The notes under the pieces are model-generated. The model did not search any database, was not told the DNA's origin, and was given only the letters and a program-made list of their open reading frames with translations. A stretch of 64,000 bases of DNA from Isurus oxyrinchus (taxonomy: Eukaryota), in assembly GCA_026770705.1 (NCBI GenBank), contig JANJGN010000022.1, positions 47,554,001 through 47,618,000 on the forward strand, given 5' to 3'. Of the stretch, positions 18,401 through 64,000 are shown piece by piece; position 1 is the stretch's first letter; each line of letters starts with the position of its first letter. A program made the position numbers and the translations under genes.

Positions 18401-18610
18401 CAAAAACAGAAACAGAAATACCTGGAAAAACTCAGCAGGTCTGGCAGCATCGGTGGAGAAGAGCACAGTTGACGTTTCGAGTCCTCATGATCCTTCAACA
18501 GAACTTAGTAAAAATAGGAAAGGGGTGAAATATAAGCTGGTTTAAGGGGGAGGGGGGAGAGAGGGGACCGGGGCGGGGGGGGGGGGGGGGGGGAGGTTGT
18601 TGGGACAAGC
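18401..18610 (-). mobile_element. Penelope-like element terminal repeat fragment with hammerhead motif
   Basis: Shared repeat GGAAAAACTCAGCAGGTCTGGCAGCATC occurs five times in the window. Adjacent hammerhead core; followed by a G-run. Confidence 0.65.
18467..18505 (-). ncRNA. Minimal type I hammerhead ribozyme-like motif (variant core CUGUUGA)
   Basis: Minus strand reads AGTT-CTGTTGA-AGGATCATGAGGACTC-GAAAC-GTC-AACT: stem I AGTT/AACT, GUC cleavage triplet, palindromic ACGT in place of stem III. Confidence 0.6.
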
Positions 18611-19399
18611 CTGAGTCTCTCTCGTTGCTATGTGGTCAAGGATTGTAGTTTCTCCTCTTCAACTGGTCTATGTGGTAGTTGCAGGATGGGAGGGAATACC
18701 CTCTTCAAAGTAAAGAGATTGAAGGGCAAGGTTGAGAACTATGTGGAAAATTCAGCTTTGTGGATATCATTCAGAAAACTGATGTGTAAATCTTTAATCT
18801 CAAAATAGTTTAAAGACAGGGAGCTGGATGAAAGAGGACAGTTGTTCTGTTTAAAAGGTAGAACACAAATTAGATTGGGAGGATTCAGCTCCTGTGGGGT
18901 ATTTATAAAATGAGAAGACAACTGAATTGAATGGGATCAGTTTGTAAGTTTTATTTTTCATTGATGGGTCCTACATGATGTTACTCACCTATTCATCAGT
19001 TACCAATGTCCTATTCATATCTTTGTGATTTTGAAACGTAGGTCAATAAAATAAGTTTGAGAATTTTATGATCCTATACCTTTGCCAGCATCATTATTTA
19101 TTCAATTTAAGTCTGAAGCCTCATAACAATTCGTGTGTTACAAGTATCACCAATGATTTCGCTTGTTGTTTCCATAGAGTTGGATGGTGCATGCTTCCTG
19201 TTTTCTTAAGTCACATTTGCTTTCTACATTGAAAAATTGGTTGGTAATTAGCTGTAGAGATCCCTGATTATGTATCCCTCAAACACAGTCATTCTAAAAC
19301 AAAAGGTCTTGTATGGTTTCTTCCGTGGCCCTTACTCCGATTTTGGTAGTTGGAAGTTGTGTCTTCTAGTGAAAGAAATTAATTACTCTGACATTATTT

Positions 19400-19810
19400 C
19401 AGTGGTGGCACTCTCACCTCTCAATTAGAAGCTTGTGGATTCCATTCCCACTCCAGAGACTTGAGCACTTAATCCAGGCTGACACTCCAGTGCAATACTG
19501 AGGAAGTACTACTTGGTTGGAGATGCTGTGCTTCTGATCAGATGTTAAACTGAGGTCCAGTCTGCCATTGCAGATGGACTTAAGAGATGCGAACAAGAGC
19601 AGAGTGCTCCTGGCCAATATCCAACTCTCAACTAACCCATTAGAAGAAATTATCTGGTCATTGTTGCAATGCTGTTTGCTGTGCACAGATTGGCTGCTAC
19701 ATTTCCGATATTATAACAGCGTCTACACTTCAAAGAGCACTTCATTGGCTGTAAAGTTCTTTGGGACATCCTGAGGTTTTGGAAGGTAATATATATAAAT
19801 AGATAAAGTA
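19400..19810 (+). mobile_element. DeuSINE-type SINE (SacSINE1/AmnSINE1-like)
   Basis: GAGACTTGAGCAC...GGCTGACACTCCAGTGCAATACTGAGG core and L2-like tail GGGACATCCTGAGG...TATATAAAT. Confidence 0.75.
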
Positions 19811-20009
19811 ATATATATAAATGCACATCTTTCTTCCTAGTGGATTTTAGAATTGGGGATAGAAACACTGGGGTAGGTTGCTGTACTGTTGGTGTGGATA
19901 ACCAAATCATTAATTTAAATATCACATCAATCAGGGGCATTCCCAATTTGGCATTCTGACCTTTATGGCCAACTCTCCAACCCACACTTGCATCATTTAG
20001 TACTGACTC

Positions 20010-21530
20010 ACTGGCTATGCCAGCATTTGTTCCTAATTGCCCTTGAGAAGGTGGTGGTAGATCACCTCTTGAACCGTTACAGTTCACGTGGTGTAGGTAC
20101 ATCCACAGTGTTGTTAGGGAGGGAGTTCCAGGATTTTGACCCAGTAACAGTGAAGGAATGGCACTATAGTTCCAAGTCAGGATGGTGTGTGGCTTGGAAG
20201 GGAATTTGCAGGAGGTGATGTTACCATGCATATGCTGCCCTTGTCCTTCCAGGTGGTGGAGGTTGCGGGTTTGGAAGGTGCTGTCAGAGAAGGCTTACTG
20301 AGTTCCTGCGGTACATTTTGTAGATGGTTCACACTTATGCCACTGTACGTCAGTGGTTGAGGGAGTGATTGTTTGTGGAAGAGGTGCCAATCAAGTGGGC
20401 TGCTTTGTCCTGGATGGTCCTGAGCTTCTTGAGCATTGTTGCAGTTGCACCCATGCAGGCAGGTGGAGAATATTCCATCGCACTCCTGTGCTTTATAGAT
20501 GGTGGATAGGCTTTGGGGAGTGAGACGGTGATTTACTCTCCGTTGAATTCCCATCCTCTGCCCTGCTCTTGTAGCCACAGTACTTATATGGCTGGTCCAG
20601 TTCAGTTTCTGGTCAATGGTAAATGCTCAGGATGTTGATAGTGGGGATTCAGTGATCATCATTCCATTGAATGTCAAGGGGAGATGGTTAGATTCTCTTT
20701 TGCTGGAGATGGTCATTGCCTGGCATTTGTGTGGTGCGAATGTTAATTGCCACTTATTAGCCCAAGACTGAATATTGGCCAGTTCACTCACAATATTCCA
20801 AATATGGTCTGACCAGAGCCTTATAAAGCCTCAGCATCACATCCCTGCTTTTATATTCTAGTCCTCTCGAAATAAATGCCAACATTGCATTTGCGTTCCT
20901 AACCATCGACTCAACCTGCCAGTTAACCTTAAGAGAATCCTGGACTAGGACTCCCAAGTCCCTTTGCACTCCAGATTTCTGAATTCTCTCCCCATTTAGA
21001 AAATAGTCTATGCCTCTATTCTTCCTACCAAAGTGCATGACCTCACAGTTGCCCACATTGTATTCCATCTGCCACTTCTTTACCCATTCTCCTAACCTGT
21101 CCAAATCCTTCTGCGGTCACTCTCACCTCACCTCTTGAGTTCTGTTCTTTTGTCCATGTAAGGCTGTAATGAAGTCAGGAGCTAAGTGGTCCTAGCGGAA
21201 GCCAAACTGCGTATTAATGAGCAGGTTCTTGCTGTGTAAGTGCTGCTTGATAATACTATCTACAACATCTTCCATTACATTGCTGACGATCGAGAATAGA
21301 CTGATGGGGTGGGGGGTTGGGATTGGATTTGTCCTACATTTTGTGTACAGGACATATCTGGGCAATTTTCTATATTGCTGGGTAGATGCCCAGTGTTGTA
21401 GCTGTACTGGAATAGCTTGGCTACGGGAGTGTGTAGTTTTGGAGCACAAGTCTTTTGTATTATTGCCAGAAAGTTATCAGCGCCCATAGCCTTTGCAGTA
21501 TTCAGTGCCTTCAGCCATTTCTTATATTTT
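20010..21530 (-). mobile_element. CR1-clade LINE of a second family, with an internal CR1 fragment at 20784-21115
   Basis: Homologous to 28365-30210 and 47785-48265 (CKFPSKPHTILTW motif, KAMGADN). ORF 20784..21104 is classic CR1 RT sequence. Confidence 0.8.
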
Positions 21531-22133
21531 TGTGTGTGTGTGAGAAATTCCATTCAAAGTGTAGGCAAATTAACAATCATGTAAAATATGCAAAACAAAG
21601 ACATTTTCCCATTTTTTTCCAAAGAAGCTATTTACTGGTCAAAAATGCTAACCAATGCTAGCTCTGCTGTGTAGGCTCATACCAATTAAGAAATGGGGTA
21701 AGACAACCACAAATCATTTCACCTAGAATTATTCCCATGAACACACAGAGGAAACTTTAATTCATTCAGTCTAAACTAGATTCAAACCCAAGTCTAGAGG
21801 TGGGAAGGCAGTATGTAGAACAATTTATCATGCAGTCCCTTAGTAGTTGTTGCAAATAAACAGGGCAGTCTTTTTTTCAAAATATACTGTGTTGGACACC
21901 AAAGGTTCATATTAAATGAACAGTGTCTAAATTGGTGGGATTATTACAACATTTGATAAACTTTATCTCAGAAATTGAACAATTTGACAATGCAATGATT
22001 TGACCCAGAAAAAAGAATTGCTTCAACTCCATGATATATCCGGGGTCCCTTATTGAAAGTCTGTTCCCACACATACACCATACTCACAACAAAAATGGGA
22101 AAATGCCCTTGGAAGTGATATGACCCAAGCCAC

Positions 22134-22245
22134 TGACAGTTGATATAAGAGTCTGCTACACAGCCTTTCATCAGCATAAATGGTTTAAAGCTATATATAG
22201 GGCTGATCAAAATTCCTTTAGGGCAGTTGTAAAGTCTATATTTAG
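22134..22245. promoter_or_regulatory. Candidate muscle enhancer in DHRS7C intron 1 (two MEF2 sites, two E-boxes)
   Basis: CTATATATAG at 22191-22200 and CTATATTTAG at 22236-22245 both match CTA(A/T)4TAG. CAGTTG at 22137 and 22224. TGACAG at 22134. Lies in non-repetitive sequence. Confidence 0.45.
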
Positions 22246-22649
22246 GTATGAAGTCTGCTCTTCCTGTTCTTGGCAATTAACCTGTGACATTCTGTGAATG
22301 AAGGATACAAAAGTCCTGTTCAACAGTAAAGTAAATTTTACTGCAAACTCTGTTGTATTTGTGCGACTTTCTTTGTTTTCACATGGTGGCGGTTTGGATT
22401 GAGGGCTCTAAAACAAAGGGTAATAAATACAAGATTAAATGTAAATGACTTAGTGCAGAATAAAACTATTTTTCAGAGGGTTGTGAGATCGTGGTATACA
22501 CCACTAGGAATAATGATTGAAGCAGAGACTATGTCAACATTTCAGAATAGATTAGACAGGTAACTAAAGCAAAGGGCAATAAAGGGGTAAGGACCCGAGA
22601 TACCCCCCACTGCCACCAACCCAACGCCCCCCCCCCCCCCGTCCACGGT

Positions 22650-22790
22650 CTTCTTTAAATAACGTTGTGAGATCTTCACATTCACTGGCAGGGTGGGTTT
22701 AACATTTAATGTGACAGGCGGCACTTTCTACAATGCAACACTACCCCCAGTACTGTACTGAGGCATTAGCCTGGATTTTGTGCTCAAGTA
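22650..22790 (-). mobile_element. DeuSINE fragment
   Basis: CAGTACTGTACTGAGGCATTAGCCTGGATTTTGTGCTCAAGT is the reverse complement of the DeuSINE core. Confidence 0.6.
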
Positions 22791-22794
22791 CACT

Positions 22795-23230
22795 TAAGAA
22801 CTTTGCACAGTTCTAGTTTCCACGTTATAAGAAGGATACAGAGGCAATGGAGAAAGTGGAAAAATTATTCACCTGGATGATAACAGAGCCGAGAGGACAT
22901 ACTTATCAAGAAAGGCTGAACAGGGTGAGGCTCTTTTCTCTAGCAAAGGGAATTTTGAGGAGTGACCTGATAACCCTGTAGGAAAACCTGTAAAACTTGG
23001 GAAATGATTGGTACTGGTCAGAATTGGTGTTTTAGGGTGTACAAGACCCTTTCAGACCAGTACCACTCATTTCCCAAGTTTTACTGGTTTTTCCTTCTGG
23101 GAAAGGTCTTTATGCTTGTGAAAGGGATTGGTTGGATAGTTGGAATGAAGATGTTTTCACTGTTCGGGGGAGAGGAAAAGTAGGGACCATAAATATAAGA
23201 TAGCCATTAATAAATTCAATAGGAAGTTAT
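22795..23230 (+). mobile_element. Degenerate CR1 3' fragment interrupted by a hairpin element
   Basis: CAGTTCTAG...TATAAGAAGGATA, AGGCTGAACAGG, GAGGAGTGACCTGATA|AAAGGTC. Confidence 0.6.
22974..23101. repeat. ~128-bp inverted-repeat (MITE-like) hairpin
   Basis: Arms 22981-23023 and 23051-23094 are near-perfect reverse complements. Termini are CCC...GGG. Confidence 0.8.
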
Positions 23231-23365
23231 TCTTTAATGGGAACAAAATATGACCCAAAGCCCTTTGCAGCAAATAGAAATGCATCTTTCCAATAGACTA
23301 AAAAATCTGAAATAGAGTTTACGTTTACTTCAACACAATTTAATGCTTTATTTAATGCTTAACAG

Positions 23366-23478
23366 AATGTTCCAGAGTATTTCACAGTGGAGGAGGTCGA
23401 GTAGTCTTGTGTGGCAATGACTGGGAAAAGTTAGAAGCCCTGCAACAAGCCCTAATTGATGTTGCTGACCCTAGTCGT
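23366..23478 (+). CDS. DHRS7C: Dehydrogenase/reductase SDR family member 7C, coding exon 2
   Basis: aacag|AATGTTCC...AGTCGT|gtgagt, 113 bp. Encodes (E)CSRVFHSGGGRVVLCGNDWEKLEALQQALIDVADPSR, matching human ECARVFHTGGARLVLCGKNWERLE. Confidence 0.95.
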
Positions 23479-24103
23479 GTGAGTATTGTTTTTTTAGAAA
23501 TATACATCTCTCTGATAGTTTCAGCATCTACTTTAAACACATTTATGGCAATGGGTTGAAAAATAATTCAATTTGCTCCTGTCACTTTTCTCTTCATCAT
23601 CAAAATTTTTAAGTGAGGTGAATATATGCATTTGATATTGTGATTATGTAACTGGTTACTTTGTTGATCGATACAAATATAAACAGAAGTGGTGACATTA
23701 AAACACAAATCTGTAGAAGACTGAAAGAAAACATGATTCTAATTACCTAGCCATGCAGTACAGTAAATATGGGCTTCCCAACCAGGGGCACTGTGTTCAA
23801 ATCTGAGGATCCTCTGATTTGGACTGTACCTTGAAGGCACGCCTTGTTATTCTTTAAGGAGAAAAACAAACAGTTAAAAAGGCAATAAGATAGGTATTTA
23901 CCAGATGTAACTAGATTTACCAGACAGCAGCTGGCTGCAGTAATTCATCTGTTCTGACAAAGCTCTAATATGGAATGCACATCAACTCATATGTTTGGTA
24001 CTTTATTACATTTTTATATTCAATCCATTTTGATTGAAAAGAAAAACTGCTACTGTTTGGATCCGGATAGACGATGATTTATTGATGACTGTTCTTTTGG
24101 TAG

Positions 24104-24314
24104 ACATTCAGTCCAAAGCTTGTGCTTTTGGACCTCAGTGAAACAGGGAATATTCCTGAGGTAGCTAAGGAAATCCTCGAATCCTATGGGTGTGTGGACG
24201 TGCTAATTAACAACAGCAGTCTGAAAGTTAAAGGAGATGCTCTCAATGTCACTTTGGAAATGGACAAGAAGATAATGGATGCAAACTACTTTGGACCAAT
24301 ATCCCTGACTAAAG
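24104..24314 (+). CDS. DHRS7C: DHRS7C coding exon 3
   Basis: tag|ACATTC...AAAG|gtaact, 211 bp. Encodes TFSPKLVLLDLSE...YGCVDVLINNSSLKVKG...MDANYFGPISLTK. Confidence 0.96.
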
Positions 24315-24739
24315 GTAACTGTAGCCTAAGGTTTATTGTCAGTAGCATGGCTCAAGCAAGATTGTTTACATGATAAAAGAATTACTTAAAAGTTGTGGAC
24401 TTGGTAGCACACTCAACTTTCATAAGAAACTGGCATTGTATTCAGGAATAAAGGGACTTGTAATGGAAACAAGGTGCAGCAATAAAGGGCAGGACCCATG
24501 AGAAATTCATGGAACATTGAGGTGACTTTTGAGAATCATTTCAACTTGATGGAAAGATGGATAACAGAGAGGTTACCAAACAACTCTGATAACAATGGAT
24601 GACAGTCAGCAGTTGAAAATCGACATGGTAGTTCAGAGAGAAATACTGGAACCAGTTCCTGGTAACATGCAAAGAGTCAGGGCTCCGACTCTGACTCAAG
24701 AGAATGTAAATTAATAATAAATATAGTTACATGATTGTG

Positions 24740-25755
24740 ATAGAAGCACTAGAAATAAGGTACCAAAACCTTAGGTCTTTGAGGCAGAAATAAATTATGG
24801 GTTAGTAGGGATATCAGAAACCAGGTTAACTCTTGAAGATGGTAATTAATACATCAATCAAAGGTACATAAGAAATAAGAAATATGGCCAGGATTAGGAT
24901 TTATTGTTATGGTTCAGCAAGCTGCTCTGCTGAACCTGTACATCAATTTCACTTTCCTGACTTAACCATATATCCCTTGATTCCCTTAGTGACCGAAAAT
25001 CTATCAATTTCTGTCCTGAATATACAGAGGGCATTCAATAAGGTACCACACAAGAGATTATTACACACAATCAGAACTCATGGGATTGGGGGTAAAATAT
25101 TAGTATGGATTGAGGATTGGCTAACAGACAAAAAATAGAGATTAGGAATAAACAGGCAATTTTCAGGTGGGTTGTGCATAACTAGTTGGGTACAGCAAAG
25201 ATTGGGTTACAACTATTTACAATCTATATCAATGGCTTAGGTGAAGGGTTTGAATGTAATATATTCATGTTTTCTGATTATACAAAGCAAGGTGGGAAAG
25301 TAAGCTATGAGAAAAACACAAAGAGGCTGCAAAAGAAAATAGACAGGTTAAGTGATTGGCAAAAATGTGGCAAATGGAATATAATGTGCAGAAATGTAAT
25401 GTTATCCACTTTGGTAGGAAATATAAAAAAGTAGGATATTAAAAAGTGAAAGACAGAAATGTTGGTATTCAGAGAAATCAGGGTGTCTTTGTACATAAAT
25501 CGCAAGAAATTAATATGCAGGTGTAGCGAACAATTAGGAAAGCAAATGGTATATTAGCCTTTATTACAAAACAATTAGAGTATGAGAATAAATAAGTCTT
25601 AATGCAATTATATAGTGCCTTGGAGTAATTACACCTGGAAAACAGACAGGCGGAAAGTAGAGTTGAGGTAGAAATCAGCCAGGATCTTATTAAATGATAG
25701 AGCAGGCTCAAACAGCTGTATGGCTTATTTATATTCCTGTTTCTTATGTTCATAT
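24740..25755 (+). mobile_element. Degenerate CR1 fragments in DHRS7C intron 3
   Basis: AFNKVPHKRLL and LFTIYIN RT motifs; CR1 3' tail near 25750. Confidence 0.75.
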
Positions 25756-26130
25756 GTTAAAATGCTGCAGCTGCTGGAAATCTGAATTTCAGGCTATAGA
25801 AGTTGATCCAATAGATATAGAAAACCATAGAATGAATTACTCTAGTTCACATTTTTAAGGTGAAAATAGCAAAATTAACAGCAGGGATATAATACAGACT
25901 ACAAAGTTAGAATAAGATGGTAGTTTACTCCATGAGAAGATAAGTGGGGTAATTAGATAATCCTGCAATCCTGGAGAGGAGCTGTGCTCACGGGAGGTGA
26001 ATTTAAAGTGATTTAGTTCAATGTTTAAAAATTTATCAATGCACAATGTCATAGGGACATGCATGAAAATGGAATAATTTCAAAACAGGTTTTTACAGCT
26101 GGCAAAACAAAATTCTCTTCCCCTTCACAG

Positions 26131-26223
26131 AACTTCTTCCCTCAATGATCTCCAGACACAATGGCCAGATTGTGTTAGTCAACAGCATCCAGGGGAAATT
26201 AGGACTTCCATTTCGTTCAGCCT
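26131..26223 (+). CDS. DHRS7C: DHRS7C coding exon 4
   Basis: cacag|AACTT...GCCT|gtaagt, 93 bp. Encodes (E)LLPSMISRHNGQIVLVNSIQGKLGLPFRSA. Confidence 0.96.
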
Positions 26224-27394: not shown

Positions 27395-27625
27395 ATCATG
27401 GAATCATACAGCCCAGAAGGAGGACCTTCAATCTACCATGCTGTTGAAACAGCTATCCTATTAGCCACACTCCCTTCCCTCTTTAACCACAGGCCTGCAA
27501 ATAGTTCTTTTTCAAGTATATATGCAATCCCCCTTTGAAATTACTTTTGAAACTGATTCCACTGCTTTTTCAGGCAGTGCATTCCAGATCATAACAACTC
27601 AATGGCGAAATAAACAATCTCTTAC
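27395..27625 (-). mobile_element. CR1 3' fragment
   Basis: CAGGCAGTGCATTCCAGATCATAACAACTC is the reverse complement of a CR1 ORF2 end. Confidence 0.6.
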
Positions 27626-27770
27626 TTTTGATTAGAGCAACTTACTGAAAAAGTACAGTGGTTCCCATTTATGGCAGGATGTTTCATTTACAAATACAAC
27701 TACCGATTCCTGTTAACATATTCAATGTACTACAAACTTATATTCTTACTGTGTACTTTTCCCCATGTAG

Positions 27771-34064: not shown

Positions 34065-35097
34065 AGATCACACCTGGAATACTGTGTATAGCTTTGGTCT
34101 CCTTACCTAAGGAAGGCTATACTTGCCTTAGCGCGAGTGCAACAAAGGTTCACTGGACTGATTCCTGGGATGAGGGGTGACTGTTCTGAGGTGAGACTGA
34201 GTAGAGTAGGTTCATATTCTCTAGAGCTTAGAAGAATGAGAGATGACCTTTCTAAACTTGAGGTCAGCCAAAACTCTGCTGCCTGTGTTTTAACTCGTAG
34301 CAAGTTCTGTTCCCTTATCACTCCTGTGCTTGCTGACCTACATTGTCTCTGGACAAACATCTTGATTTTAAAATTCTGATCCTTGATTTCAAGTCCCTCC
34401 ATGGCCTTGCCTCTCCCTATCTTTGTTATCACCTCCAACACTACAACTGCCTTGCATTATCTGTGCTCCTCTGATTCTGACTCTTGTGCATTCCCAATTA
34501 TAACTGTTCCACTATTGGTGGCCGTGCCTCAAGTTGCCTAGGTCCCAAGCTCTGGAATTCTCTCCCTACATCTCCACTTCTCTATTTCGCTTTCATCCTT
34601 TAAGGCACTTCTTAAAGCCCACTGCTTTGACCAAGCTTACCTAATATTTCCTTATGTGACTCAGTGTCATACTTAGATTTGTAATGCTCCTGTGAAGTGC
34701 CTTGGCACATTTCATTACGTGATCTCAATGAAATACATAAAATACTTAAGCAGCTTGACAGGGTAGATGCTAGGAGAATTTTTACCTTGGCTGATGAGTC
34801 TAGAACAAAGGGTCCTAGTCTCAGAATAAGGGGGTGGCCATTTAAAGCCAAGCTGAGGAAAAATTTCTTCAGTGCGTTGTGAACTTGCATTCTCCACTTC
34901 AGAGATCTGTGGATGCTCAGTCATTGAATATATTAAAGTCAAAGATTGACAGATTTTTGGATACTTAGGGAATCAAAGGGTATAGGGATAGTGTTGGAGT
35001 GTGTAGCTGAGGTAGAAGATCAGCCAGAATCCAACTGAAATGCGGAACAGGCTCATGGGGCTGAATGGCCATCTTTTGTCCTATTTCTTATGTTCTT
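34065..35097 (+). mobile_element. CR1 3' fragment with a nested L2 LINE 3' fragment (~34250-34718)
   Basis: CR1 YSLELRRMRDDL resumes after the insert as DLNEIHKILK. The insert reads QNSAACVLTRSK..ITPVLADLH..FKIL..FKSLHGLA (L2 signature) and ends in an L2 tail. Confidence 0.8.
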
Positions 35098-35369
35098 GCT
35101 CGTATTTGACACCCAGGTGAAAATACCACCTGGCTCCTCCGCCTATCCTCTCTTCCAAAAAAGTTTACTGCCTTTCCTAAAGATTCCCTTTAATAACCTG
35201 AAATAAATCTCAACAATGCCTCACACCCATAAAAATAAATAATTCTCTCTGTATCATCAATTTAAATTTAAGCGTATTATTCATTCATGACAGAAGCAAG
35301 ATATTTAATATAACACGAATAAAAGCTTTGTTGACTCACTTTTAATTGATGGAAATTTGAATACTGACA

Positions 35370-36262
35370 GTAGGATAAATGGCTCATTTTCAGGTTGGCA
35401 AATGGTAACTAGTGCTGGGGCCTTAACTCTTTACAATCTATATCAATGACTTGGATGAAGGGACCAAATGTATGGTGGCTAAATTTGCTGATGTCACAGG
35501 TAGTTGTCTAGAGGACATAAAGAGTCTACGAAGGGATTTAGATACGTTAAATGAGTGGGCAAAAATTTGGCAGAATGTAGGGAAATGTGAACTTGTTCAT
35601 TTTGGCAGGTAGAAAAGCAGTATACTATTTAAATGGAGAGAGACTGCAGAACTCAATGGTAGGGAGAGAAGTATTGCTGCAGCTGGTACAGAGACTTAGT
35701 TAGACTGCATCTATAATAACGTGTAGAGTTTGGTCTCCTTACTTAAGAAATGATATAATTGCATTAGAGACAGTTCAGAGAAGGTTCACTTGGCTGATTC
35801 CTGGGATGAAGGGATTATTTTAGGAGGAAAGCTTGAGCAGCATGGGCCTATACCCATTGGAGCTGAGAAGAATGAGAGATGATCTTATTGAAACATATAA
35901 GATCCTGAGGGAATTTGACATGCTGGATGCTGAGAGGATGTTTCCCATTGTAGGGGAGTCTAGAACTAGAGGACACAGTTTAAAAATTAGGGGTCTCTCA
36001 TTTAAGACCAAAATTAGAATTTTTTTCTCTAGGGGTAGGTAGTCTGTGGAATTCTCCTCCCCAGAGAGCAGTAGAGGATGGGTCATTGAATATATTCAAG
36101 GCTGAGTTAGATAGATTTTTGATTAACAAGTGAATCAAGGGTTATTATGGGGGATGAACAGGAAAGTGGAGTTGAGGTCACAATCAAATCACCCATGATC
36201 TTACTGAATGACGGAGCAGGTTTGCGGATCCGAATGGCTGACTCCTGCTCCTAATTCTTGTG
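35370..36262 (+). mobile_element. CR1 RT/3' fragment
   Basis: FTIYINDLD, KFAD, LYPLELRRMRDDLIETYK; CR1 3' UTR. Confidence 0.85.
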
Positions 36263-43552: not shown

Positions 43553-43775
43553 CAAAATAAAAACAGAAAATGCTGGAAAAACTCAGCAGGTCTGGCAGCA
43601 TCTGTTGAGAGAGAAACATAGTTAATGTTTCAAGTCTGTATGACTTTTCTTCAGAGCTAAGGAGAAGTAGAAATGTGAAGGAATTTATACTGTTTAAGGT
43701 GGGGTGGAGCAGGTGAAGCAAGATAAAGGGGCTAAAGAGAGATTGACCAAGATGTTGTGGACATAAGACAATGCT
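43553..43775 (-). mobile_element. Penelope-like terminal repeat fragment with hammerhead motif (43620-43658)
   Basis: Minus strand reads AGCT-CTGAAGA-A-AAGTC-ATACA-GACTT-GAAAC-ATT-AACT. Confidence 0.65.
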
Positions 43776-43789
43776 TGGATTCATGCAAG

Positions 43790-44965: not shown

Positions 44966-45410
44966 TTAGCTAAGGCAACCTAATAATCTTGGATGTGCAT
45001 GATATGGTTAAATTGACATTGCCAACAGAGGAAGAACCAAATCATTGTAAAATGCTACTCAATTCGACACATGGGACACATTGTTTCCACGGACAAGATT
45101 TGTGCTCAAGTCTCTGGATTGGACGTGAACCTATGACTCATGATTCCAAGGTAAAAGTGCTACCAATTGATCCAGATATGGGATTTGATGAAATTGGGGC
45201 TAGGTTTTTGGTAACCCCCCCCCCAACACTTAGAAATTCATCCTCCTGAGAACTGACAGCCGAAGGAAAGTCAAGATCCTTGTTTATATAACTGACTTGC
45301 ATGTAATTGTGCAGATAAAATTTAAGGAAATTGGCATTAAATAGGGATGAATTTCTAGGTGTTGATGTGTTTCTAAATAACTCTGTTGCATAGACAAAGT
45401 TTGGTTATAT

Positions 45411-45568
45411 AAAAGCAAAATACTGCGGATGTTAGAAATCTGAAACAAAAAGAGAAAATGCTAGAAAAATTCAGCAGATCTAACAGCATCTGTGGAGAGA
45501 AAAAAAAAGTTAACGTTTCGAGTCCATATGGCTTTTCTTCAGAAAAGTCATACACACTCAAAACATTA
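45411..45568 (-). mobile_element. Penelope-like solo terminal repeat with inverted hammerhead pair and 17-bp TSD
   Basis: ACAAAGTTTGGTTATAT at 45394-45410 and 45569-45585. Hammerhead core CTGAAGA...GAAACGTT on the minus strand at 45508-45544. Confidence 0.75.
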
Positions 45569-45699
45569 ACAAAGTTTGGTTATATCTTGAGTTGGGTTTG
45601 CAGACTGAGTTGAGGTTTGGATTATGATTGAGTTTGAAGGTTGGGTCCAGTTTGTGATTGGAGTTGGGTTCAAGGTTAGGGTTGAATTTTAAGGTTGGA

Positions 45700-46150
45700 G
45701 TTGGATTTCAGTTTTGGATTAGGGTTGAGTTTGAGGTTAGAATTGGATTTCAGTTTTGGATTAGGGTTGAGTTTGAGGTTAGAGTTGGATTTCAGTTTTG
45801 GATTAGGGTTGAGTTTGAGGTTAGAGTTGGATTTCAGTTTTGGATTAGAGTTGAGTTTGAGGTTAGAGTTGGATTTCAGCTTTGGATTAGGGTTGAGTTT
45901 GGGGTTAGAGTTGGATTTCAGTTTTGGATTAGAGTTGAGTTTGAGGTTAGAGTTGGATTTCAGCTTTGGATTAGGGTTGAGTTTGAGGTCAGAGTTGGAT
46001 TTCAGTTTTGGATTAGGGTTGAGTTTGGGGTTAGAGTTGGATTTCAGTTTTGGATTAGAGTTGAGTTTGAGGTTAGAGTTGGATTTCAGCTTTGGATTAG
46101 GGTTGAGTTTGAGGTCAGAGTTGGATTTCAGCTTTGGGTTCAGTTTGAGG
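45700..46150 (+). repeat. 42-bp minisatellite, 10 full units plus a partial unit
   Basis: Unit GTTGGATTTCAGTTTTGGATTAGGGTTGAGTTTGAGGTTAGA starts at 45700, 45742, ... 46078, 46120. Confidence 0.95.
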
Positions 46151-46209
46151 GTTGGAGTTGCATTTCAGTTTTGGGTTGAGTTCAGGTTGAGGTTTGGTTT
46201 AGGATTCAG

Positions 46210-46660
46210 ATGTGCGTGCGTGGGGTCGCAGTTACCATGCGCTCCCACGGGGGGCGCCACATTCGGACCCATTGCTCCTCGCGCGGTGGAAAATTCCAGG
46301 CGGCCATGTCTCGGAAGGTTGTTGCTAACCTGTTGAAGGTGATGTTACCTAGAAAGAGTACCGCCCGCCCGGGAACCAGCTCCACTCACCCCTCCGCTCA
46401 CCCAGCCGTCAAACACGACCGAGAAAAGTACCAGTTCTCAATTAAACTGGGCGGTAAGTAGCCTGGGCTGGGGCAGCCTCCGATTCGAGGTCAAGCAAGA
46501 AGCCGGCGACTAGGCCGAGCTCCCCAGCAAATGTTTCCATCCTTCACCAGGGCCGCTGGATTGTACCCGGGCCACTGAATAAATCACAAAGCATCTACTG
46601 CGCAAACTCAGAGCCGGCCTCCTCTCCGGGAGCTGACGGTAAATGCGCACGCGCTTATTC
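46210..46660. promoter_or_regulatory. CpG-island-like putative promoter / first exon of an unidentified gene
   Basis: CpG-rich and not recognisably a transposon. NRF1-like TGCGCACGCGC at 46644, CTCF-like CCCACGGGGGGCGCC near 46244, RFX half-sites, strong donor GCG|GTAAGT at 46453. Confidence 0.55.
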
Positions 46661-48900: not shown

Positions 48901-49305
48901 GGCAAGAGTGGAGTCCTGACTCTCTACAGAAATTACCAATGTTAGGTGCTTATCTATAAATGATACTGTGGACTCTAACATAATTGCCCCTCCAGCAACT
49001 CAGTGTTTGTTCTTGTGTTCTCTCCACAGAAGATTCTGAACTGTCCATGCTACAGAACACCACTGCACCAGAAGTTGCTCAAAAGCTGCCTCCACTATAC
49101 TATACCAGACCAAGACACCTGCAAAAGGAATGTTTCCATTGTATTGCAATTACCAGTGCACACAGAGTTTCGGCACAGCAGGCTCCAGACTAATACTTCA
49201 CTCTTTTGCCAATATAATGTGCCACTCAAGCTCTTGACGTGGTACAGAACAATGTCACAAGGCTGATCCAGGGGAAGGAGATATAATGAAGGGAAATACT
49301 CAATT

Positions 49306-49400
49306 AAAAACAAAGTGCCGTAAAAACTCAGCAGGACTGGCAGCAGATGTGGAAAGAGAAACAGAGTTTATGTTTCAGGTTGGATGACCTTTCATCAGAA
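49306..49400 (-). mobile_element. Penelope-like terminal repeat fragment with canonical CUGAUGA hammerhead core
   Basis: Minus strand reads TT-CTGATGA-A-AGGTC-ATCC-AACCT-GAAAC-ATA-AACT (49365-49400). Confidence 0.6.
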
Positions 49401-49945
49401 TGGGTTAGACCTGAAGGAACTGAGTGCAGCCAGTTCAGAGGGAAACAGCTTAGAGTGCCTGAAGGGAGCAGAGAAATTGAGATGGTTGATGAGACCTGTC
49501 CATGCCTTGATGAGACCTGTCCATGCCATCAGCTCTCAAAGAAATGATCGAGGGGATAAGAGGCCAGAGGGAGGGGTCCACGTGGAGTGAGAATACTGAA
49601 AATGGGTAACAGTGTCCACTGTGTGGTGGGTGAAGACTCCTGACCAAAAAAGTGGGCATGGAAGCAAAGGTGACTGAAGAAAAACTCAATGTCACAGTGA
49701 GCTTTGTTCATTGCAGTGGGGGAGTACAGCAATAGAGCTGACCTCTTTGCTAAGGATAGGTAGTTCAAGTTCAGAAAGGAGAAGTTGGAATCAATACCTG
49801 CCAAGAGATGAGATTAGAAGGAGGGAGGGCATCAGTGGCAAGTGAGAGGGAAGTAAGATCTGGATGGGTGGTAGTAACCTTAAGTTGTGGGAGCTTGTGA
49901 TCCTTAACACCAGAAAGGCAGAACAGATGTTTTTTAAGGTGTCTG

Positions 49946-52022: not shown

Positions 52023-52059
52023 AGTGGACAGGAGTCCATTAAATTATTCTGACGGCATT

Positions 52060-57227: not shown

Positions 57228-57530
57228 GATGGTGGCATAGTGGTATTGAGTAATTCTCTGAGGTACCCGGTTTCGGTGAAACTTGAATTCAATAAAAATC
57301 TGGAATTAAAAGTCTAATGATGAGCATGAAACCATTGCCGATTATTGTAAAAACCCATCTGTTTCACTAATATCCCTTAGGGAAGGAAATGTGCTATCCT
57401 TACCTGGTCTGGCTATGTGTGATTCCAGACCCTCAGCAGTGTGGTTAACGTTTTTAAAAAATGCCCTCTGAGCAAGGGCAATAATTGCTGGCCTGGCCAG
57501 TAATGCCCACATCCCAAGAACAAATGTAAA
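57228..57530 (+). mobile_element. tRNA-headed SINE inserted in Gypsy gag
   Basis: GGTGGCATAGTGGT A-box head; tail GGCCTGGCCAGTAATGCCCACATCCC is shared with the second LINE family. Confidence 0.7.
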
Positions 57531-58233
57531 GAACCTCACAAATTCAATATAGGCTTGTTCAGGATGTTTCCCTATGTTACAAAACTTGCCTGTATACCTC
57601 AGACAAATGCACTAAGAATAGCTTTCTATAGCACCATAATCCATAGACATCTGAAAGTGATGCATAAACCTCATGAGCTCTGCCCACTAATCTACTTTGT
57701 AGGAGCAATGTCCAGTTTCCTTTTGGCCACTTCATTTGCTTAGCTACCTTCTCAAACAAAATGAAGGGTGCCTCTATGTTCCTTTCCTCAAACTTTGGAA
57801 GGACATGTACAAATTTAAACATCTCCACATTGGACTCTGGGTTGGGAAAAGTTATTCCATCCGCAAAACAATCCCCAACATCTGGTACCTCTATTTAAAT
57901 TCCAGCCTTTTAAGCTGGTATTCCCTTTCTTGTTCCTCTTCCCTTACCTGAACTTCCAGTTCCAGCTGCTTAAATGCTCTTTCTCTTTCGGCTCTTTCCT
58001 GTCCAAATTTAAGTTTCTTCATTTCTTTTTCGTGTTCAGACTACCTCATTTGCAACCGAATCCTAGCTAACTCAATTGACTCATCCCCTGGAGAATGTGG
58101 TCTCTCTCATATCCCTTCCAGTTTCAAATGCTGCGCTATTACCTCAACCATCTCTGCCCTCCTCACCTCTTCAGTTAATTCTAACTTCAACTTATCTGCC
58201 AATTCCCTTAGCTCAGCCTTGGGTACTTTTTGA

Positions 58234-61200
58234 CATCTCATATTCACAAACCCATCACACATCCACAGGGCCCTCACTCACTGCCAGTTCAAAGGACATC
58301 ACCATTCACACTCTCACACACGCCTTCATTGTCCTCAGCCCGTCTATGGGACCACTCACCACCTGCACAGGCCAGGCATACTTATCATCTGGCCCGGCAG
58401 GTATCCTGCTTACACTTTCTCCATCTCTATCCATGTAGGACAAGCTGGCACACGACACAAGAGAGGACGCAGACTGGTGGTGGAATGCTTGAAATCAAGG
58501 TTCTCATAGACTTAAAAAACAGAGCCATCCAGCTAGCTGGTGAGAATCTGGACCGGTCCTGTGCTGATGGTGAGGTTGGCACTGCTCTACTAAGTGAGGA
58601 TCCAGCAGTGCAACATCCATCAGACAACCATGCTGTGAGTAATGAGTCTTGTTTCCCAGGCCACTGCCATGCACTAATTCTCTCTCCTTGCTTTCACAGG
58701 CACATCTGCCAAACAGCCGATAGAGTCCATGACCTAGGGCCTCCAACCAAGCCCCTCTGAAGAGCCCCCAAGGGAGCTCTGAAGGGGAATCTGAAGGCTT
58801 CTCAAAGTCCTGTCGCAGCACTCACCTGCACCCCCCACCAGCATAGAGAGACACACCTCGGTGGGACCTAGCTTTAGAATAGACACGGGATCACAATCTG
58901 ATGAGCACGTCACACTGCCTGATTGATAGCAGGTGGAGGCAGGGACTTCCTAGGTTTCTGGCACCTGGAGGACTGCTGGAGGCCAGAAATTTGCTGAGTC
59001 CGAGTTAGATGATGGACTCGGTCATGTCACAGTTGCTGGAATTGCAAAGGCTAGCTCGGGAACATCAGGAAGGGATGTCTGCTGCACCCCTCAGATTGCA
59101 AGGCACGATGGAAGAGTCCGTCTGCCTTCAGGCTGAGTTGATAGTGCTGGCATGCCAATGTACTGGGGTCAACACTGGTAGGATGGGGCTGCCATGGAGA
59201 CCTTGGTCCAAGATGTCGCTCCTGTGTTGTTGCATGGGTTCAACTCCATCGCTGACACTATAGTTGGCTTACAACAGTGTGTACTTGAGAAGGGTGTGGG
59301 GCAGCTCGGTCGCACTCCAGCTACCCCTTCCCCTCAAGGAGTCAGCCAGGGATCTGTGGGCACCCATAGGGAGGAGATCAGTAGGTGCACACTCCTGGTC
59401 CATCCACCTAGGTGACTTTGGGAGTGACCGGCCCATCCGAATCCCCTCTTCCTATGACCTCAGCAGCTGCAGCTTCACAGGGCAAGGAGGGTGCCGCTGC
59501 CACACAGCAGGACCTCGAGAGCAGGCTGCGGCCCTCCAGAGGACACCCGTTAAAGTCATCACAGATAGGGCATCACAGTCAGCAGGCTGCCTCCACCTCC
59601 GCTGTGGATGTCTGGGGAGCACCAAGACGTGGAGGCAGGGTTAGAAAAGTTAAGGAGAATTAGTTGGGTATGGGCGTTAATCACTGCTCACTATTGTCAA
59701 TAAACTCTCAAGAATGTCTCCCTGCCTATGGCTCCTTGTTCTGATGAGCAGTGTTCTTGTCATTCAGATGTAAAACCTTTCTGCACAAGATAAAGGCAGG
59801 TGTCTCAGTCCAGGGCCTCTTCCCTGTGTCTGTGCAGCCTTCAGACCAAAGTGATGGTCCGGCCCCTCACTCCCTGGAACATTGCTGATGCCTGCACTTC
59901 GGCAGTGTTGGTCATTGCTGCCCAAATGTAGTGGGCAGGCACCACAGAGTTCTCTCATTCTCTCAATGTGCTCTCAGCACCTATAAGGTGGGGCTGGCCC
60001 CCATCTCTTCAGCATCTGTGATCACTGATGCTGTGCTCCAGCTCCTGAAGGGCTCAGGTGCTGAAGGCAGACAAAGCATCAGCTGCTTCTAAAGCTTCTT
60101 GGCTGCATTTCTATGATATAACCCTGATCATGGAATGCAAGCGAGTTGCCCTCAGCCAGACAGGAGTCAGACATTCTCAGAGGCTATGTGAAGATTTATG
60201 GAGTGCCCTCACTACATGTCGTCTTCATCCTCCTGCAATCGAACGACTATTAGGGCCTCCACTGCATCTCCATGACAGGAGCAGTCTCACAGAGGTTATT
60301 CTTGCTGCCATAGCCAGACTGGAGTCAAACATTCACAGATGCGCTGTGAGGATCTGTGGGTCCACCTCACTGTATGTCGTCATATTCCTCCACAAATCTA
60401 GCAGCTATGAGAGCCTCCAGAGCGTGCCTGCCTCGTCTAGCCAATGTAAGGGCCTCATCTCCGTCATCATCGCCTCCGAGGACTTCCTCACCCTCACCCC
60501 CATCGGCGGCATCCTCATTGGAGGAGACATGCAGCTCCACCATCTGCTCCTCAGCCAGCCTGTCTCCCCTTTGGAGTGCCAGGTTGTAAAGGACACAGCA
60601 GACGACAATGATGCATGACACTCTCTGCGGACTGCGTTGCAGGGCTCCACCAGACTGGCCTAGGCGCCGGAACCTCATCTCCAGCACCCGGATGGTCTGC
60701 TCCACCAAGTTGCGAGCTGCAGCATAAGCCTCATTATACCATTGCTCTGCTGCAGTCTGAAGCCGCCGCCCGGGTGTCATCACCCACGGCTTCTGTGGGT
60801 AGCCATTGTCCCCGTACAGCCTTCCCTGCAGCTTTTATGGACCCTGGATGACTCCAGGGATCTGTGATTTGAGGGCGTAGGCATCATACACCTTCTCTAG
60901 AAAATGTGTACACGCTTGCAGGATGTGTTCCTGGTGGTTGCATACTAGCTGCACATTCAATGAGTGGAATCCCTTGCAGTTGATGTAGTCTGCTGTGTGC
61001 ACCGATGAAGGCCTGAGCGCCACATGGATACAGTAGATTGCAATCTGCACCAATAGGAATCCTGAGATCCGGGCGAATCCAATGGCCCTTGCATCCTGAT
61101 TGTCCCGGTCCCGGGTGAAATGCACAAAGTTGTGTGCACTTGAGAAGATGGCACCCGTGACCTTATGGGTTCATTTGTGGCGGTGGCTTGTGATATCCCA

Positions 61201-62816
61201 CAGAGGTCTCCTGTGGAGCCCTGAAGGGAGCCACTGGCATAGAAATTGAATGCCACAGTCACTTTCACAGCCACTGGCACCAAGTCCTACAGTAATTGGC
61301 AGATGTGAGGGACCAGGTCCCTCGACATGCACAGTTGTCAGTAACACTGGTTCCTGGTCATCTGCAGGAATGACAGGTTGTGACTGTAGACCCTGGGCGT
61401 GACTAGGCACTGACCAGCCACGGCTTGCTGTCACACCTGAACAGCGTGTTCGGGAGCTGCAGCAGCCCTTTCTTCCTGAGATTGCTGCTCCTGCCTTTAC
61501 ATGGCTAGGTGCCTCAGTCACTCCCTCCTCCGCCTTAGCACTCTGTGGGCCATCAGGCATACAGCTAGGTCACCAGGCTCCATGCTCCTGATGTGGTCCT
61601 CCTGCAAAATGAAAGAGAGAGAGACATGGTTGGCATGGGTGAACTTAGTATCTTTCCTGGCCCTGTGTGATGGCCCCTTAACGCTTCCTGGGAACTGCTG
61701 GCCACCCCTCGGATGGCTAGAAATGAGTGCGCTGCATGGCTGCCCTGTCAGCCTGCGACATTGGGGACAAAGCTCCTAACTGGGTTGCAGAGATTGCAAA
61801 GGGCTGTGAACATCTCCAGCAGTGACTGCTACATGGCCAGCATTGTGGAGGAGATTGTACAATGTCTGCAGTCCAACTGCTCTGCGGTCCAGTAAAGTGG
61901 TTGCAGACTTGCAGTCTGTGCCAGGAGTGGGGGGGCTGGGGAGGGGGTAGGGGGTAAGATCTGGAGCACTTGGGTGGCACTTTGGTGCCTCCACTTTGCT
62001 TGTACTGGTGGGCAGACTTGGAGCCTGACCCCATTCATATCAGTGTGACTGTGCCTGAACTGTCTCAGTTGCAGAGGAATGCTCAGTTTATAAAGATGTC
62101 CCTACTGCATGGCCACTTCCCTCGCATATCCTCCCCCCACAACTCAATTTCTTATCTGTGGGATCCAATGCCAGGGAAGCAGTCTCCCCCTCCACCCCCC
62201 CAGACAACAGCAACAGTCACCTCTGAGGCTAGGCAGCAGACCCCCACTCCCCTCCCCCCGGCAACAGCAACAGTCGCCTCCATGGATGAGCAGCAGTTGC
62301 CCCCGGACACCCCATGCCCGACAACAGTCGCCTCTGAGGCTGGGCAGCAGTTGCCCCCTGAGTTGCCCCCTGACACCACACCCTCCCCCCCCCCCCCCGA
62401 AAGCAGTCGCCTCCGAGGCAGGGTGGCACCTTACCCAGGGCCCCTGGCACCCCTGAAGCCTGCAAAGCAACAGGCAACCCTAGCGAGATGTGGAAAATGA
62501 TGCTGTTCACTCACCTCAGTTCCCCCAAAGTGAAGGCCGCCAAGTACACGTCGCCCATTGTGAAACACATCAACATGCTTTCCCGCCAGCATGGACAGAT
62601 GATCCAGCAGGGGGTCCAAGAGCCTGGTGGGATGGCCTCTTAATGATATGCTGATGTATTACAGTGAGCTTCCCGATGATTGTTGGTGAGAAACACGGCC
62701 TGCCGAAGGCGGGCTGAGAGGACCTGCCTTCCTGCCATCGTGAAACTGATCGCCCTATTTTCTTCACGCACACCACCTATCAAACCCTCTGCTAATGGGC
62801 ACGGAAAATTCCACCC
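58234..62816. mobile_element. Second PIF/Harbinger transposon (left end deleted) inserted in the Gypsy element
   Basis: Right TIR GGAAAATTCCACCC ends at 62816. Myb-like exon DKLAH..ERTQTGGG at 58439, last exon ending RKVKEN* at 59663. Convergent transposase. Confidence 0.85.
60367..61590 (-). pseudogene. Harbinger transposase, frameshifted
   Basis: FYASGSLQGSTGD, AIYCIHV (catalytic D lost), KGFHSLNVQLVC, VEQTIRVLEMRFR, CCVLYN. Confidence 0.88.
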
Positions 62817-62888
62817 TTGGTATCTGTCTTTTTATCCTTTAACAATTATTATTAATCTGTATCTAATCACTCTTAGTCCACACTTTAA

Positions 62889-62906
62889 ATACCGGACGAA
62901 CCCCCA
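62889..62906 (-). other. Primer binding site complementary to tRNA-Pro
   Basis: Minus strand TGGGGGTTCGTCCGGTAT versus canonical TGGGGGCTCGTCCGGGAT, 6 nt after the LTR end (...TAACA). Confidence 0.85.
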
Positions 62907-63060
62907 ATCTTATGTTACGGACCATGATGGGAGGAGTGTGCAGTTAATTCTAACCCCACTTCTCTGCAGGTCACTACAATAGTTTAAATGTTTAACTCAC
63001 CCACAAATCTGGCCAATTTTTACCTTTGACACTGTTACTCCCAGCATAAAAAGACTCTCA

Positions 63061-63232
63061 GAGTTAACATTTTGAGTCCGTATGACTCTTCTTAAGACCT
63101 CTGAAGAAGAGTCATATGGACTTGAACAGTTAACTCTGTTTTTCTCTCCACTGATGCTGTTAGACCTGCTGAGTTTTTCCTGCATTTTCTGTTTTTGTTT
63201 CATATTTCCAGCATCCGCAGTACTTTGCTTTT
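63061..63232 (+). mobile_element. Penelope-like solo terminal repeat with inverted hammerhead pair and 15-bp TSD, inside the LTR
   Basis: ATAAAAAGACTCTCA at 63046-63060 and ATAAAAAGATTCTCA at 63233-63247. CTGAAGA-AGAGTC-ATATG-GACTT-GAAC at 63101. Confidence 0.75.
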
Positions 63233-64000
63233 ATAAAAAGATTCTCACCAGGCTTCTTTCAGTAAAAAAAATTGATTTATTATAAAACAAACTACTATTT
63301 CAAAAATAAGTTAATAAACTGGCTAACATACAAGTTGCAGTTTAGAAATGTAACAATTTTCTCTTTAAAAAAAACCATATTTGAACCCCCCATAAATTCA
63401 CGCACAAACACAAATAACAAAACCAAAAAACACAGTCCCCTCCAGAAGTTGGAGTATAGGAACATTCCTTTTAAAAGGATAAAATTCAAAGAGATCGCAA
63501 AGCAGTTGACCTAACAGAATTCTGGTCACATTTGGTCTGGAAGTTCTTTCAGACATTTTTTGGTGAAAATGTCCTTGATGACTCTTACTTATCACAACTT
63601 CGCGAACTCTCAAAAAAACATGATATATTCTGATGAGATGTTTTTGTGGAAGGTTTAACACAAAGGTAGGGCAGAGAGAGAGTATTTTTCTTGTAGCCTG
63701 CTTCTAAGGCCACCTCCCCCCCCTCCCCCCCACAATGGTACTGTTTCTCTGAGAGTTTTAAAGATTAAGATTTCAAAGAATACTTCTTTTGGGCCAGGTG
63801 TTTTTAACCAATCAGCAAGAACCTTTAGCCTGGAAACAGCAGTTCTTTGTTAACTTTTGTTAACTTAGATATACAAGTATCTCTTCCCCCTCCAGGTGTT
63901 CCTCGCTGGACATCTATGTTGACCCGATTTCTTTAAGAATGGCATATTCACAGCCCTGAATTAATAATGCAAACTTTTAAAAATAACTCAGGAGGAAGCA

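What the first reader, a model, noticed from the sequence alone, without database searches (positions are those of the whole stretch)
18401..63247. Family of short Penelope-like repeats carrying minimal hammerhead ribozymes (five copies in 45 kb)
Seen: copies at ~18401, 43553, 45411, 49306 and 63061 share a ~100-bp body followed by CTGA(A/T)GA (CTGTTGA in one copy), an extra A, a 5-bp stem II, GAAAC (GAAC in the last copy), a cleavage triplet and AACT; ACGT replaces stem III in the least decayed copies. Established: Penelope-like retroelements encode minimal type I hammerheads with palindromic stem III that act as dimers. Inference: an abundant non-coding, ribozyme-bearing mobile unit (retrozyme-like or solo pLTR) in this lineage, with several core subfamilies.
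Basis: partly seen in the sequence, partly recalled or inferred. Interest (0 to 1): 0.7.

Follow-up and report, generated by a model that had tools for sequence, protein, structure and literature searches.

The report
Truncated Penelope retrotransposon ends with hammerheads
The five repeats are cut-short, decayed ends of one very abundant Penelope-type jumping gene whose end carries an already described small self-cutting-RNA motif; the only unusual points are that the youngest copies have changed a normally fixed letter of that motif and that many copies begin just before it, which likely means cutting is not needed for jumping.

Summary
The five copies are real, but the hammerhead comes first on the RNA strand and none is intact. 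They are not a separate retrozyme: they are 5'-truncated 3' ends (pseudo-LTRs) of a Neptune-type Penelope-like retrotransposon. 20 of 20 loci picked by the GIY-YIG domain carry the motif 360-465 nt downstream; eight copies have a 926-codon RT+endonuclease frame, 98.7-99.6% identical. Copies show the known Penelope signature: two 3' ends (tail), head-to-head inversions, 14-17 bp target duplications. 57 bodies in 800 kb of unselected DNA (about 350,000 genome-wide) make the window's density ordinary. Stem II covaries between subfamilies. Two sidelights: the two youngest subfamilies have U at core position 6 (109 A6 against 72,498 matches in the youngest), and 5' ends pile up just before the core (34 of 89) with none at the cut site, about 30 nt below a TATA-like box. 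Likely reading: short copies are cDNAs of uncleaved RNA running off the transcript start; cleavage is probably dispensable. Nothing on cleavage was tested at the bench. The scan had already noted all three points on other DNA of this genome. New member of a known kind; interest 0.3.

The parts
18390..18608 (-). Copy 1: 5'-truncated pseudo-LTR of the young (U6) lineage; hammerhead 18505-18467 (CTGTTGA core, one stem II mismatch), body to ~18404, plus ~100 nt of upstream 3'UTR with the TATA-like box
43555..43771 (-). Copy 2: 5'-truncated pseudo-LTR of the older CTGAAGA subfamily; hammerhead 43658-43620 (stem II 5/5, stem III palindrome lost by CpG-type change), ends at the first 3' end (+100)
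45409..45570 (-). Copy 3: head-to-head insertion; main arm 45543-45409 with tail (starts at C3-1, stem I 5' strand missing, stem II 3/5), short inverted arm ~45541-45570 on plus
45394..45410 (.). Left copy of a 17-bp target-site duplication of copy 3
   Evidence: exact 17-bp match to 45569-45585
45569..45585 (.). Right copy of the 17-bp target-site duplication of copy 3
49302..49404 (-). Copy 4: oldest type (CTGATGA, stem II AGGTC type, short loop), hammerhead 49402-49365, decayed
49401..49787 (-). Broken fragment of the element's ORF (residues ~203-322 of the 926-aa frame) joined directly to the hammerhead of copy 4; internal-deletion or template-switch product
   Evidence: tblastn E 3e-12, 40%; similar joins in L119, L282, L284
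63059..63097 (-). Copy 5, short inverted arm (partial hammerhead)
63097..63234 (+). Copy 5, main arm: hammerhead 63097-63135 (CTGAAGA; A15.1/C15.2 swapped so stem III is broken), body and tail to +134
63046..63059 (.). Left copy of a 14-15-bp target-site duplication of copy 5 (one mismatch to 63233-63246)
63233..63246 (.). Right copy of the target-site duplication of copy 5

Best explanation
The five repeats are decayed, 5'-truncated 3' ends (pseudo-LTRs) of successive subfamilies of one autonomous RT+GIY-YIG Penelope-like retrotransposon, and the short ones were likely made when the element's own enzyme copied uncleaved RNA from its internal start sites back to the transcript's 5' end. Shown: same motif lies 174 nt before the ATG and ~400 nt after the stop of intact 926-codon copies; two 3' ends (+92-111 and +122-152 from core C3); head-to-head arms; target duplications; a 5' pile-up at C3-11..+11. 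From literature (anole element, PMC11167929): the endonuclease nicks the target and RT starts at two internal sites, which gives the tail; hammerhead cleavage was not needed for insertion in vitro. Inferred: the pile-up marks the transcription start (TATA-like box 29-31 nt upstream), so priming at the 5'-proximal copy of the start sites yields 100-140-bp run-off cDNAs, often from both target ends. Inferred: the hammerhead fold is still under constraint in the master elements but cuts weakly or not at all in the two youngest subfamilies (U6); the window's copies are passive.
For: 20 of 20 loci picked by the endonuclease carry the motif on the same strand 360-465 nt after it. 8 of 20 long-frame loci fetched have 926-codon frames, 98.7-99.6% identical; 7 of 20 have a direct upstream hammerhead copy; Pfam RVT_1 above cut-off, GIY-YIG E 9e-4 below cut-off. 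3' ends bimodal: 41 and 45 of 89, 30 and 23 of 57. 5' ends: 34 of 89 in the 23-nt hot spot against 9 in the next 41 nt and 8 in the previous 47 nt, binomial p 2e-12; 10 of 14 non-inverted short copies too; 21 of 57 across all subfamilies. 0 of 89 and 0 of 57 at the cut site +/-2. Genome-wide starts at the cut site: 240 against 111 at a control position in the U6 family, of 30 inspected each only 4 and 5 are plain starts; 232 of 13,307 against 133 in A6 families, 20 of 30 inspected being mutated hammerheads, 3 plain starts. Endonuclease tree of 35 of 69 copies gives a ladder AA, AT, TT, TC with mean tip lengths 0.104, 0.062, 0.035, 0.008. 20 of 20 long-frame copies have U6. Stem II: 2 of 5 pairs change on both sides between subfamilies.
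Against: The transcription start was not observed: the RNA runs were contigs only and showed no start or end. The hot spot also coincides with the 5' edge of stem I and, in older subfamilies, with a pyrimidine tract plus AG, so RT stalling or a splice acceptor fit as well. Cut-site counts are about twice the control in both tests (240:111, 232:133), so a faint footprint under about 0.5% of copies is not excluded; only one control position was used per family and the A6 control loci could not be inspected. TSDs of 8 bp or more were found for only 6 of 14 short solo copies and none convincing for window copies 1, 2 and 4. The 89 copies come from the first 3.2 Mb of one contig. Covariation rests on one or two evolutionary events in 15 hand-picked rows.
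Confidence: 0.8

Rival explanations
1. The short copies are a non-autonomous, SINE- or retrozyme-like unit with its own master copies, mobilised in trans by the Penelope enzyme.
For: A sharply preferred 5' end and two fixed 3' ends give a near-constant 100-140-bp unit; some have their own TSDs (window copies 3 and 5; 6 of 14 solo copies). Literature derives vertebrate non-LTR retrozymes from pLTRs (bioRxiv 10.64898/2026.07.22.740005, parts 1-3 read) and shows pLTRs can act in cis alone (PMC3846280 passages).
Against: Short copies carry the same hammerhead and body letters as ORF-bearing copies of each subfamily; lengths form a continuum up to full length; no head-to-tail arrays in 964 kb; the short unit lacks the TATA-like box that lies upstream of it; ends are not at the cleavage site.
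Confidence: 0.08
2. Same element, but the 5' pile-up comes from RT stalling or fold-back at the hammerhead structure, or from a splice acceptor at the start of stem I, not from the transcript start.
For: Most frequent ends (-4, -7) are the 5' edge of stem I; stem I strands give microhomology for inversions; older subfamilies have a pyrimidine tract, AG and in type C a branch-point-like word just before the motif; in Drosophila Penelope the intron's 3' end maps to helix I (PMC4209133, parts 1-2 read).
Against: The predicted fold is weak (about -6 kcal/mol, not the minimum-energy fold), so a strong RT block is unlikely; RT would meet the structure from its 3' side (+34), where there is no pile-up; a spliced template would add a constant first exon to short copies, and their upstream flanks differ from copy to copy.
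Confidence: 0.3
3. The U6 hammerhead is still an active, protein-assisted or dimer ribozyme that processes tandem transcripts, and its cleavage simply leaves no mark on inserted copies.
For: All other core positions, the extra A, stem I and the ACGU palindrome are kept through all subfamilies and stem II covaries; the anole motif cleaves only with its protein and cleavage ends were not seen in RNA-seq either (PMC11167929); a natural A6C hammerhead is slow but active, better with Mn2+ (PMC3088659 passages; PMC7151607 part 1).
Against: Position 6 changes strongly lower rates in those papers (A6C; A6U itself not reported in what I read); minimal PLE hammerheads are already weak (PMC4209133); no cut-site footprint above about twice background.
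Confidence: 0.35

Closest known systems
Minimal hammerheads (min-HHR) in pLTRs of metazoan Penelope-like elements (Cervera and De la Pena 2014, PMC4209133; parts 1-2 of 4 read)
   Same: Type I, no loop III, palindromic 15.2-16.2, extra nucleotide between A9 and 10.1, 4-bp helix I, several consensus families per genome, mostly single truncated copies, some opposite-strand pairs, a few in full PLEs; reported in fish, coelacanth, frog, reptiles.
   Different: Helix II is 5 bp; U6 instead of A6 in the two youngest subfamilies (the parts read list a U3-A8 variant, not U6); copy number in the 10^5 range against 2,000-9,000 reported; sharks are not mentioned in the parts read.
EN+ Penelope-like elements, Neptune/Nematis type (Craig et al. 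2021, PMC8557442 passages; Arkhipova et al. 2013, PMC3846280 passages)
   Same: Single ORF with RT, C-X4-C-X2-C linker and C-terminal GIY-YIG; partial tandems forming pLTRs; inverted 5'-truncated copy; optional 30-40-bp tail; TSDs; solo pLTRs; TATA-like box in the pLTR.
   Different: Clade placement by tree against reference PLEs was not done; the fixed 5' start just before the hammerhead was not described in the passages read.
Poseidon element of the green anole, PAc (Frangieh et al. 2024, PMC11167929; parts 1-2 of 4 read)
   Same: Two internal RT start sites giving the tail; hammerhead in the pLTR; insertion from uncleaved RNA.
   Different: Poseidon clade; there the hammerhead overlaps the start codon and RT starts inside the ORF, here the hammerhead and both 3' ends lie in the 5'UTR, 174 nt and about 40-75 nt before the ATG.
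Non-LTR retrozymes of animals (bioRxiv 10.64898/2026.07.22.740005, parts 1-3 of 5 read; PMC7229834 seen only as a search listing)
   Same: Type I hammerhead, pLTR-related, non-coding, dispersed monomers exist.
   Different: Defined by head-to-tail tandem units each with a complete hammerhead; none seen here.

Membership tests
min-HHR of metazoan PLEs | Core boxes CUGANGA and GAAA | tested here: inconclusive
   Met in older subfamilies; not met in the youngest: 99 of 100 listed have T at position 6 and A6 is 109 against 72,498. Window: A6 in copies 2-5, U6 in copy 1; copy 5 has the 3' box altered.
min-HHR of metazoan PLEs | Extra nucleotide between A9 and helix II | tested here: met
   Present in 44 of 44 parsed motifs, A in 43 (the parser assumes one such position, pairing register checked by slides).
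min-HHR of metazoan PLEs | Helix II with compensatory changes | tested here: met
   94.7% of cells paired, 2 of 5 pairs change on both sides; slid controls 13-39% (15 chosen rows, few independent events).
min-HHR of metazoan PLEs | G10.1-C11.1 closing pair | tested here: inconclusive
   G-C in types A and B, A-U in type C.
min-HHR of metazoan PLEs | Palindromic positions 15.1-16.1 (ACGU), short helix I | tested here: met
   ACGT and AGTT/AACT in the young and master-like copies; decayed in window copies 2, 4, 5; one helix I mismatch is fixed in the CTGAAGA subfamily.
min-HHR of metazoan PLEs | Located in both pLTRs of a PLE | tested here: met
   C3 at -150 from the frame start and ~+400 after the stop in L076, L079, L081, L083, L090.
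min-HHR of metazoan PLEs | Self-cleavage as a dimer | not testable with these tools
   Needs in vitro assay; RNA runs were contigs.
EN+ PLE, Neptune/Nematis type | One ORF with RT and C-terminal GIY-YIG | tested here: met
   926-codon frames; RVT_1 32.9 bits over cut-off 29.6; GIY-YIG 19.9 bits, E 9e-4, under cut-off 22.6; catalytic-type motifs visible in the translation.
EN+ PLE, Neptune/Nematis type | CX2-5CxxC linker between RT and EN | tested here: met
   C-X4-C-X2-C before the endonuclease in L076, L077, L082; definition from PMC8557442.
EN+ PLE, Neptune/Nematis type | pLTR partial tandems, inverted 5' copy, 30-40-bp tail, TSD | tested here: met
   Direct and inverted pLTRs; bimodal 3' ends about 37 nt apart; 11 head-to-head pairs among 73 bodies; TSDs at window copies 3 and 5.
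EN+ PLE, Neptune/Nematis type | RT phylogeny placing it in Neptune rather than Nematis | not tested
   No reference PLE proteins were fetched; 'Neptune' rests on the linker and on vertebrate occurrence.
Non-LTR retrozyme | Two or more consecutive head-to-tail units with complete hammerheads | tested here: not met
   None in the window; 2 same-strand pairs under 1.5 kb among 73 bodies in 964 kb. The whole genome was not scanned for arrays.
Non-LTR retrozyme | Unit-length RNA released by cleavage and circularised | not testable with these tools
   Indirectly against: copies do not start at the cleavage site.

The most novel reading that the evidence does not exclude
In this lineage the hammerhead has stopped being a cutter: a catalytic-core change (A6 to U) was fixed once and carried by the two latest and largest waves of the element, while the fold was kept as the 5' leader that the RT/endonuclease binds; the hundred-thousand short copies are run-off cDNAs that map the transcript start and the two RT start sites at base resolution, giving a natural in vivo test of what Penelope hammerheads are for.
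Probability: 0.35. Interest if true: 0.55.

Novelty: new member of a known kind. Interest (0 to 1): 0.3.

Why it matters
As a catalogue entry it is ordinary: hammerheads in Penelope pseudo-LTRs, truncated solo copies, inversions and tails are published. What it offers is material for an open question that the papers read here state themselves, namely what the PLE hammerhead does (PMC8557442: function still unclear; PMC11167929: not needed in vitro). This genome holds young intact elements with a changed core next to older subfamilies with the canonical core, and enough copies (about 4% of 800 kb sampled) to read template ends from DNA alone.

Tried and rejected
Rfam scan of the window: no hammerhead family at E<=5; uninformative for motifs without helix III. 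Single-strand folding: the hammerhead is not the minimum-energy fold of any window copy or of the young copy; z-scores -2.2 to +0.9; a one-site dimer scores -12 to -14 kcal/mol, above the cofold optimum; neither supports nor refutes activity. RNA evidence: 23 runs hold the element, RNA status mostly guessed, all contigs; four laid on L076 cover it but show no starts, ends or convincing splice joint. Cleavage footprint, suggested by an earlier scan note on another genome: not found above about twice a control position. 5' ends at -59 to -94 are artefacts of my extension stopping in a variable microsatellite and were left out of the hot-spot test; 12 copies ran past the fetched stretch. A non-autonomous internally deleted subfamily (ORF fragment joined to hammerhead, as in copy 4): only 3 of 40 scored matches span the join besides the window copy, junctions of two compared differ; treated as sporadic, not established. 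Lunse et al. 2017 on small PLE hammerhead variants is not held, so U6 variants may be described there; searches for A6U and for the U6 core spellings found nothing relevant (listings only). Shark-plus-Penelope searches returned genome papers seen only as listings. Supplements were not read; those of PMC4209133 hold larger motif alignments that may include cartilaginous fish or U6.
Full report
Observation. The five copies are present and related far beyond chance. Read on the RNA strand each is: 4-nt stem I strand, core CTG-N-N-GA, extra A, 5-bp stem II, GAAA, CGT-type palindrome, cleavage nucleotide, AACT, then a ~65-100-nt body. Copies 3 and 5 have a second, inverted partial arm and 17-bp and 14-15-bp target duplications. 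Copies 1 and 2 extend 100-130 nt further upstream, and copy 4 is joined to a broken piece of the element's ORF. None of the five keeps all hammerhead features. Rfam does not detect them.

Link to an autonomous element. The window is part of a 4.98-Gb genome. Of 30 best genomic matches to copy 5, several ran upstream into a GIY-YIG-like frame. That domain gave 149,320 first-look candidates; in 20 of 20 loci fetched by it alone the hammerhead and body followed 360-465 nt downstream on the same strand. An RT segment gave 37,548 candidates; of 20 loci chosen for long open frames, eight have a 926-codon frame, 98.7-99.6% identical in DNA, with RT, a C-X4-C-X2-C linker and C-terminal GIY-YIG. They are flanked by direct or inverted copies of their own 3' end, and the hammerhead lies 174 nt before the first ATG and about 400 nt after the stop. 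This is the layout of EN+ Penelope-like elements of the Neptune/Nematis type (PMC8557442 passages; PMC3846280 passages).

Abundance. Exact motif counts: 72,498 for the youngest hammerhead, 105,023 for its body, 6,110 and 284 for two older stem II types, all with 0 in the reversed control; these are lower bounds. In 80 stretches of 10 kb taken at round coordinates there were 57 bodies and 4.0% element sequence, about 350,000 bodies genome-wide if extrapolated, arms of inverted pairs counted apart. Five in 64 kb is therefore average. 14 of the 57 run into the ORF.

Hammerhead evolution. A tree of the last 520 nt of the ORF (35 of 69 copies, up to 12 per core type, midpoint root) orders core types as a ladder AA, AT, TT, TC with shrinking tip lengths 0.104, 0.062, 0.035, 0.008; type C had no copy in the tree and is placed as oldest only by its low identity. 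Stem II changes on both sides at two pairs between types, which is real covariation but one or two events. Position 6, an A in the hammerhead consensus, is U in the two youngest types: 99 of 100 listed matches, 20 of 20 long-frame copies, and only 109 matches with A6, one of which nests inside the young clade as a back-change. Natural A6C hammerheads are slow in Mg2+ (PMC3088659 passages; PMC7151607 part 1); I found no report of U6 but could not read the most relevant paper.

Ends of the copies. In 89 young copies selected only by a body motif (first 3.2 Mb of contig C1), 3' ends fall in two groups, 41 at +92-111 and 45 at +122-152 from core C3, 3 run on into the ORF side: the known Penelope tail, which in the anole element reflects two internal RT start sites (PMC11167929). 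5' ends pile up at -11..+11: 34 copies, against 9 in +12..+52 and 8 in -58..-12 (p 2e-12), also among non-inverted copies (10 of 14), and none at the cut site +31. The unselected 57 give 21 and 0. Genome-wide pattern counts for starts at the cut site are about twice those at one control position in both U6 and A6 families, but inspection of 30 loci each shows mostly small deletions and stem-I-guided inversions, with 3-5 plain starts, as in the one control inspected. So no clear cleavage footprint; a faint one under about 0.5% of copies is not excluded.

Mechanism. Shown: structure, ends, abundance, subfamily order. From literature: endonuclease nicking, internal RT initiation, insertion from uncleaved RNA, promoter in the pLTR (PMC11167929; PMC2377424 passages). 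Inferred: a TATA-like word lies 29-31 nt before the pile-up in types A and B (spacing rule from my own knowledge), so the pile-up is likely the transcript start and short copies are run-off cDNAs primed at the 5' copy of the RT start sites. Rivals are RT stalling or a splice acceptor at the same spot, and a still-active, protein-assisted U6 ribozyme. The RNA data available were contigs and decide nothing.

Comparison and verdict. It is a member of the EN+ PLEs on all features tested and works like the min-HHR system of Cervera and De la Pena 2014; it fails the tandem-array criterion of non-LTR retrozymes in the 964 kb examined. My reading was written down before the scan's notes were opened; those notes show that the fixed start, the U6 core and the truncated-end reading had each been noted on other pieces of this genome, and one note on another genome prompted the footprint test. 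New member of a known kind, interest 0.3; the boldest reading not excluded (a hammerhead kept as a non-cutting leader) has probability about 0.35.

Noticed in passing
window 49401-49787; L119:657-1850; L282; L284: ORF residues ~200-325 joined directly to a type C hammerhead; the ORF's codons at that point resemble the hammerhead's first letters, so recurrent microhomology template switches are possible. L119 is a ~1.3-kb internally deleted element with an inverted 5' arm.
   Followed up: partly
window 22983-23091: Near-perfect 52-bp inverted repeat with a 5-nt gap (87% complementary), weak Rfam miRNA-type match far below threshold; probably a MITE-like hairpin.
   Followed up: no
window 3508-4209 (-) and 60367-60834 (-): Two open frames that look like PIF/Harbinger-type transposase fragments (recognised from memory of the motifs, not tested).
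   Followed up: no
window 231-1295, 5200-5919, 7386-8024, 9643-10209, 34093-36145: Several CR1-like LINE RT and endonuclease fragments (family name recalled, not tested); the window is repeat-dense with no obvious host exon among long frames.
   Followed up: no
window 45560-46275: Tandem array with an 18+24-nt (42-nt) period starting right after copy 3.
   Followed up: no
L351-L355 (G000:C5 83.299-83.310 Mb): One fold-back Penelope insertion repeated five times at 2.4-2.8-kb spacing, that is inside a larger tandem duplication.
   Followed up: no
window 28176 (-): A lone loose hammerhead-core pattern outside the family, with no AACT or body; probably chance.
   Followed up: no
L058:1-2876: All three plus-strand frames open for about 940 codons upstream of the Penelope fragment, probably a long simple repeat.
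   Followed up: no
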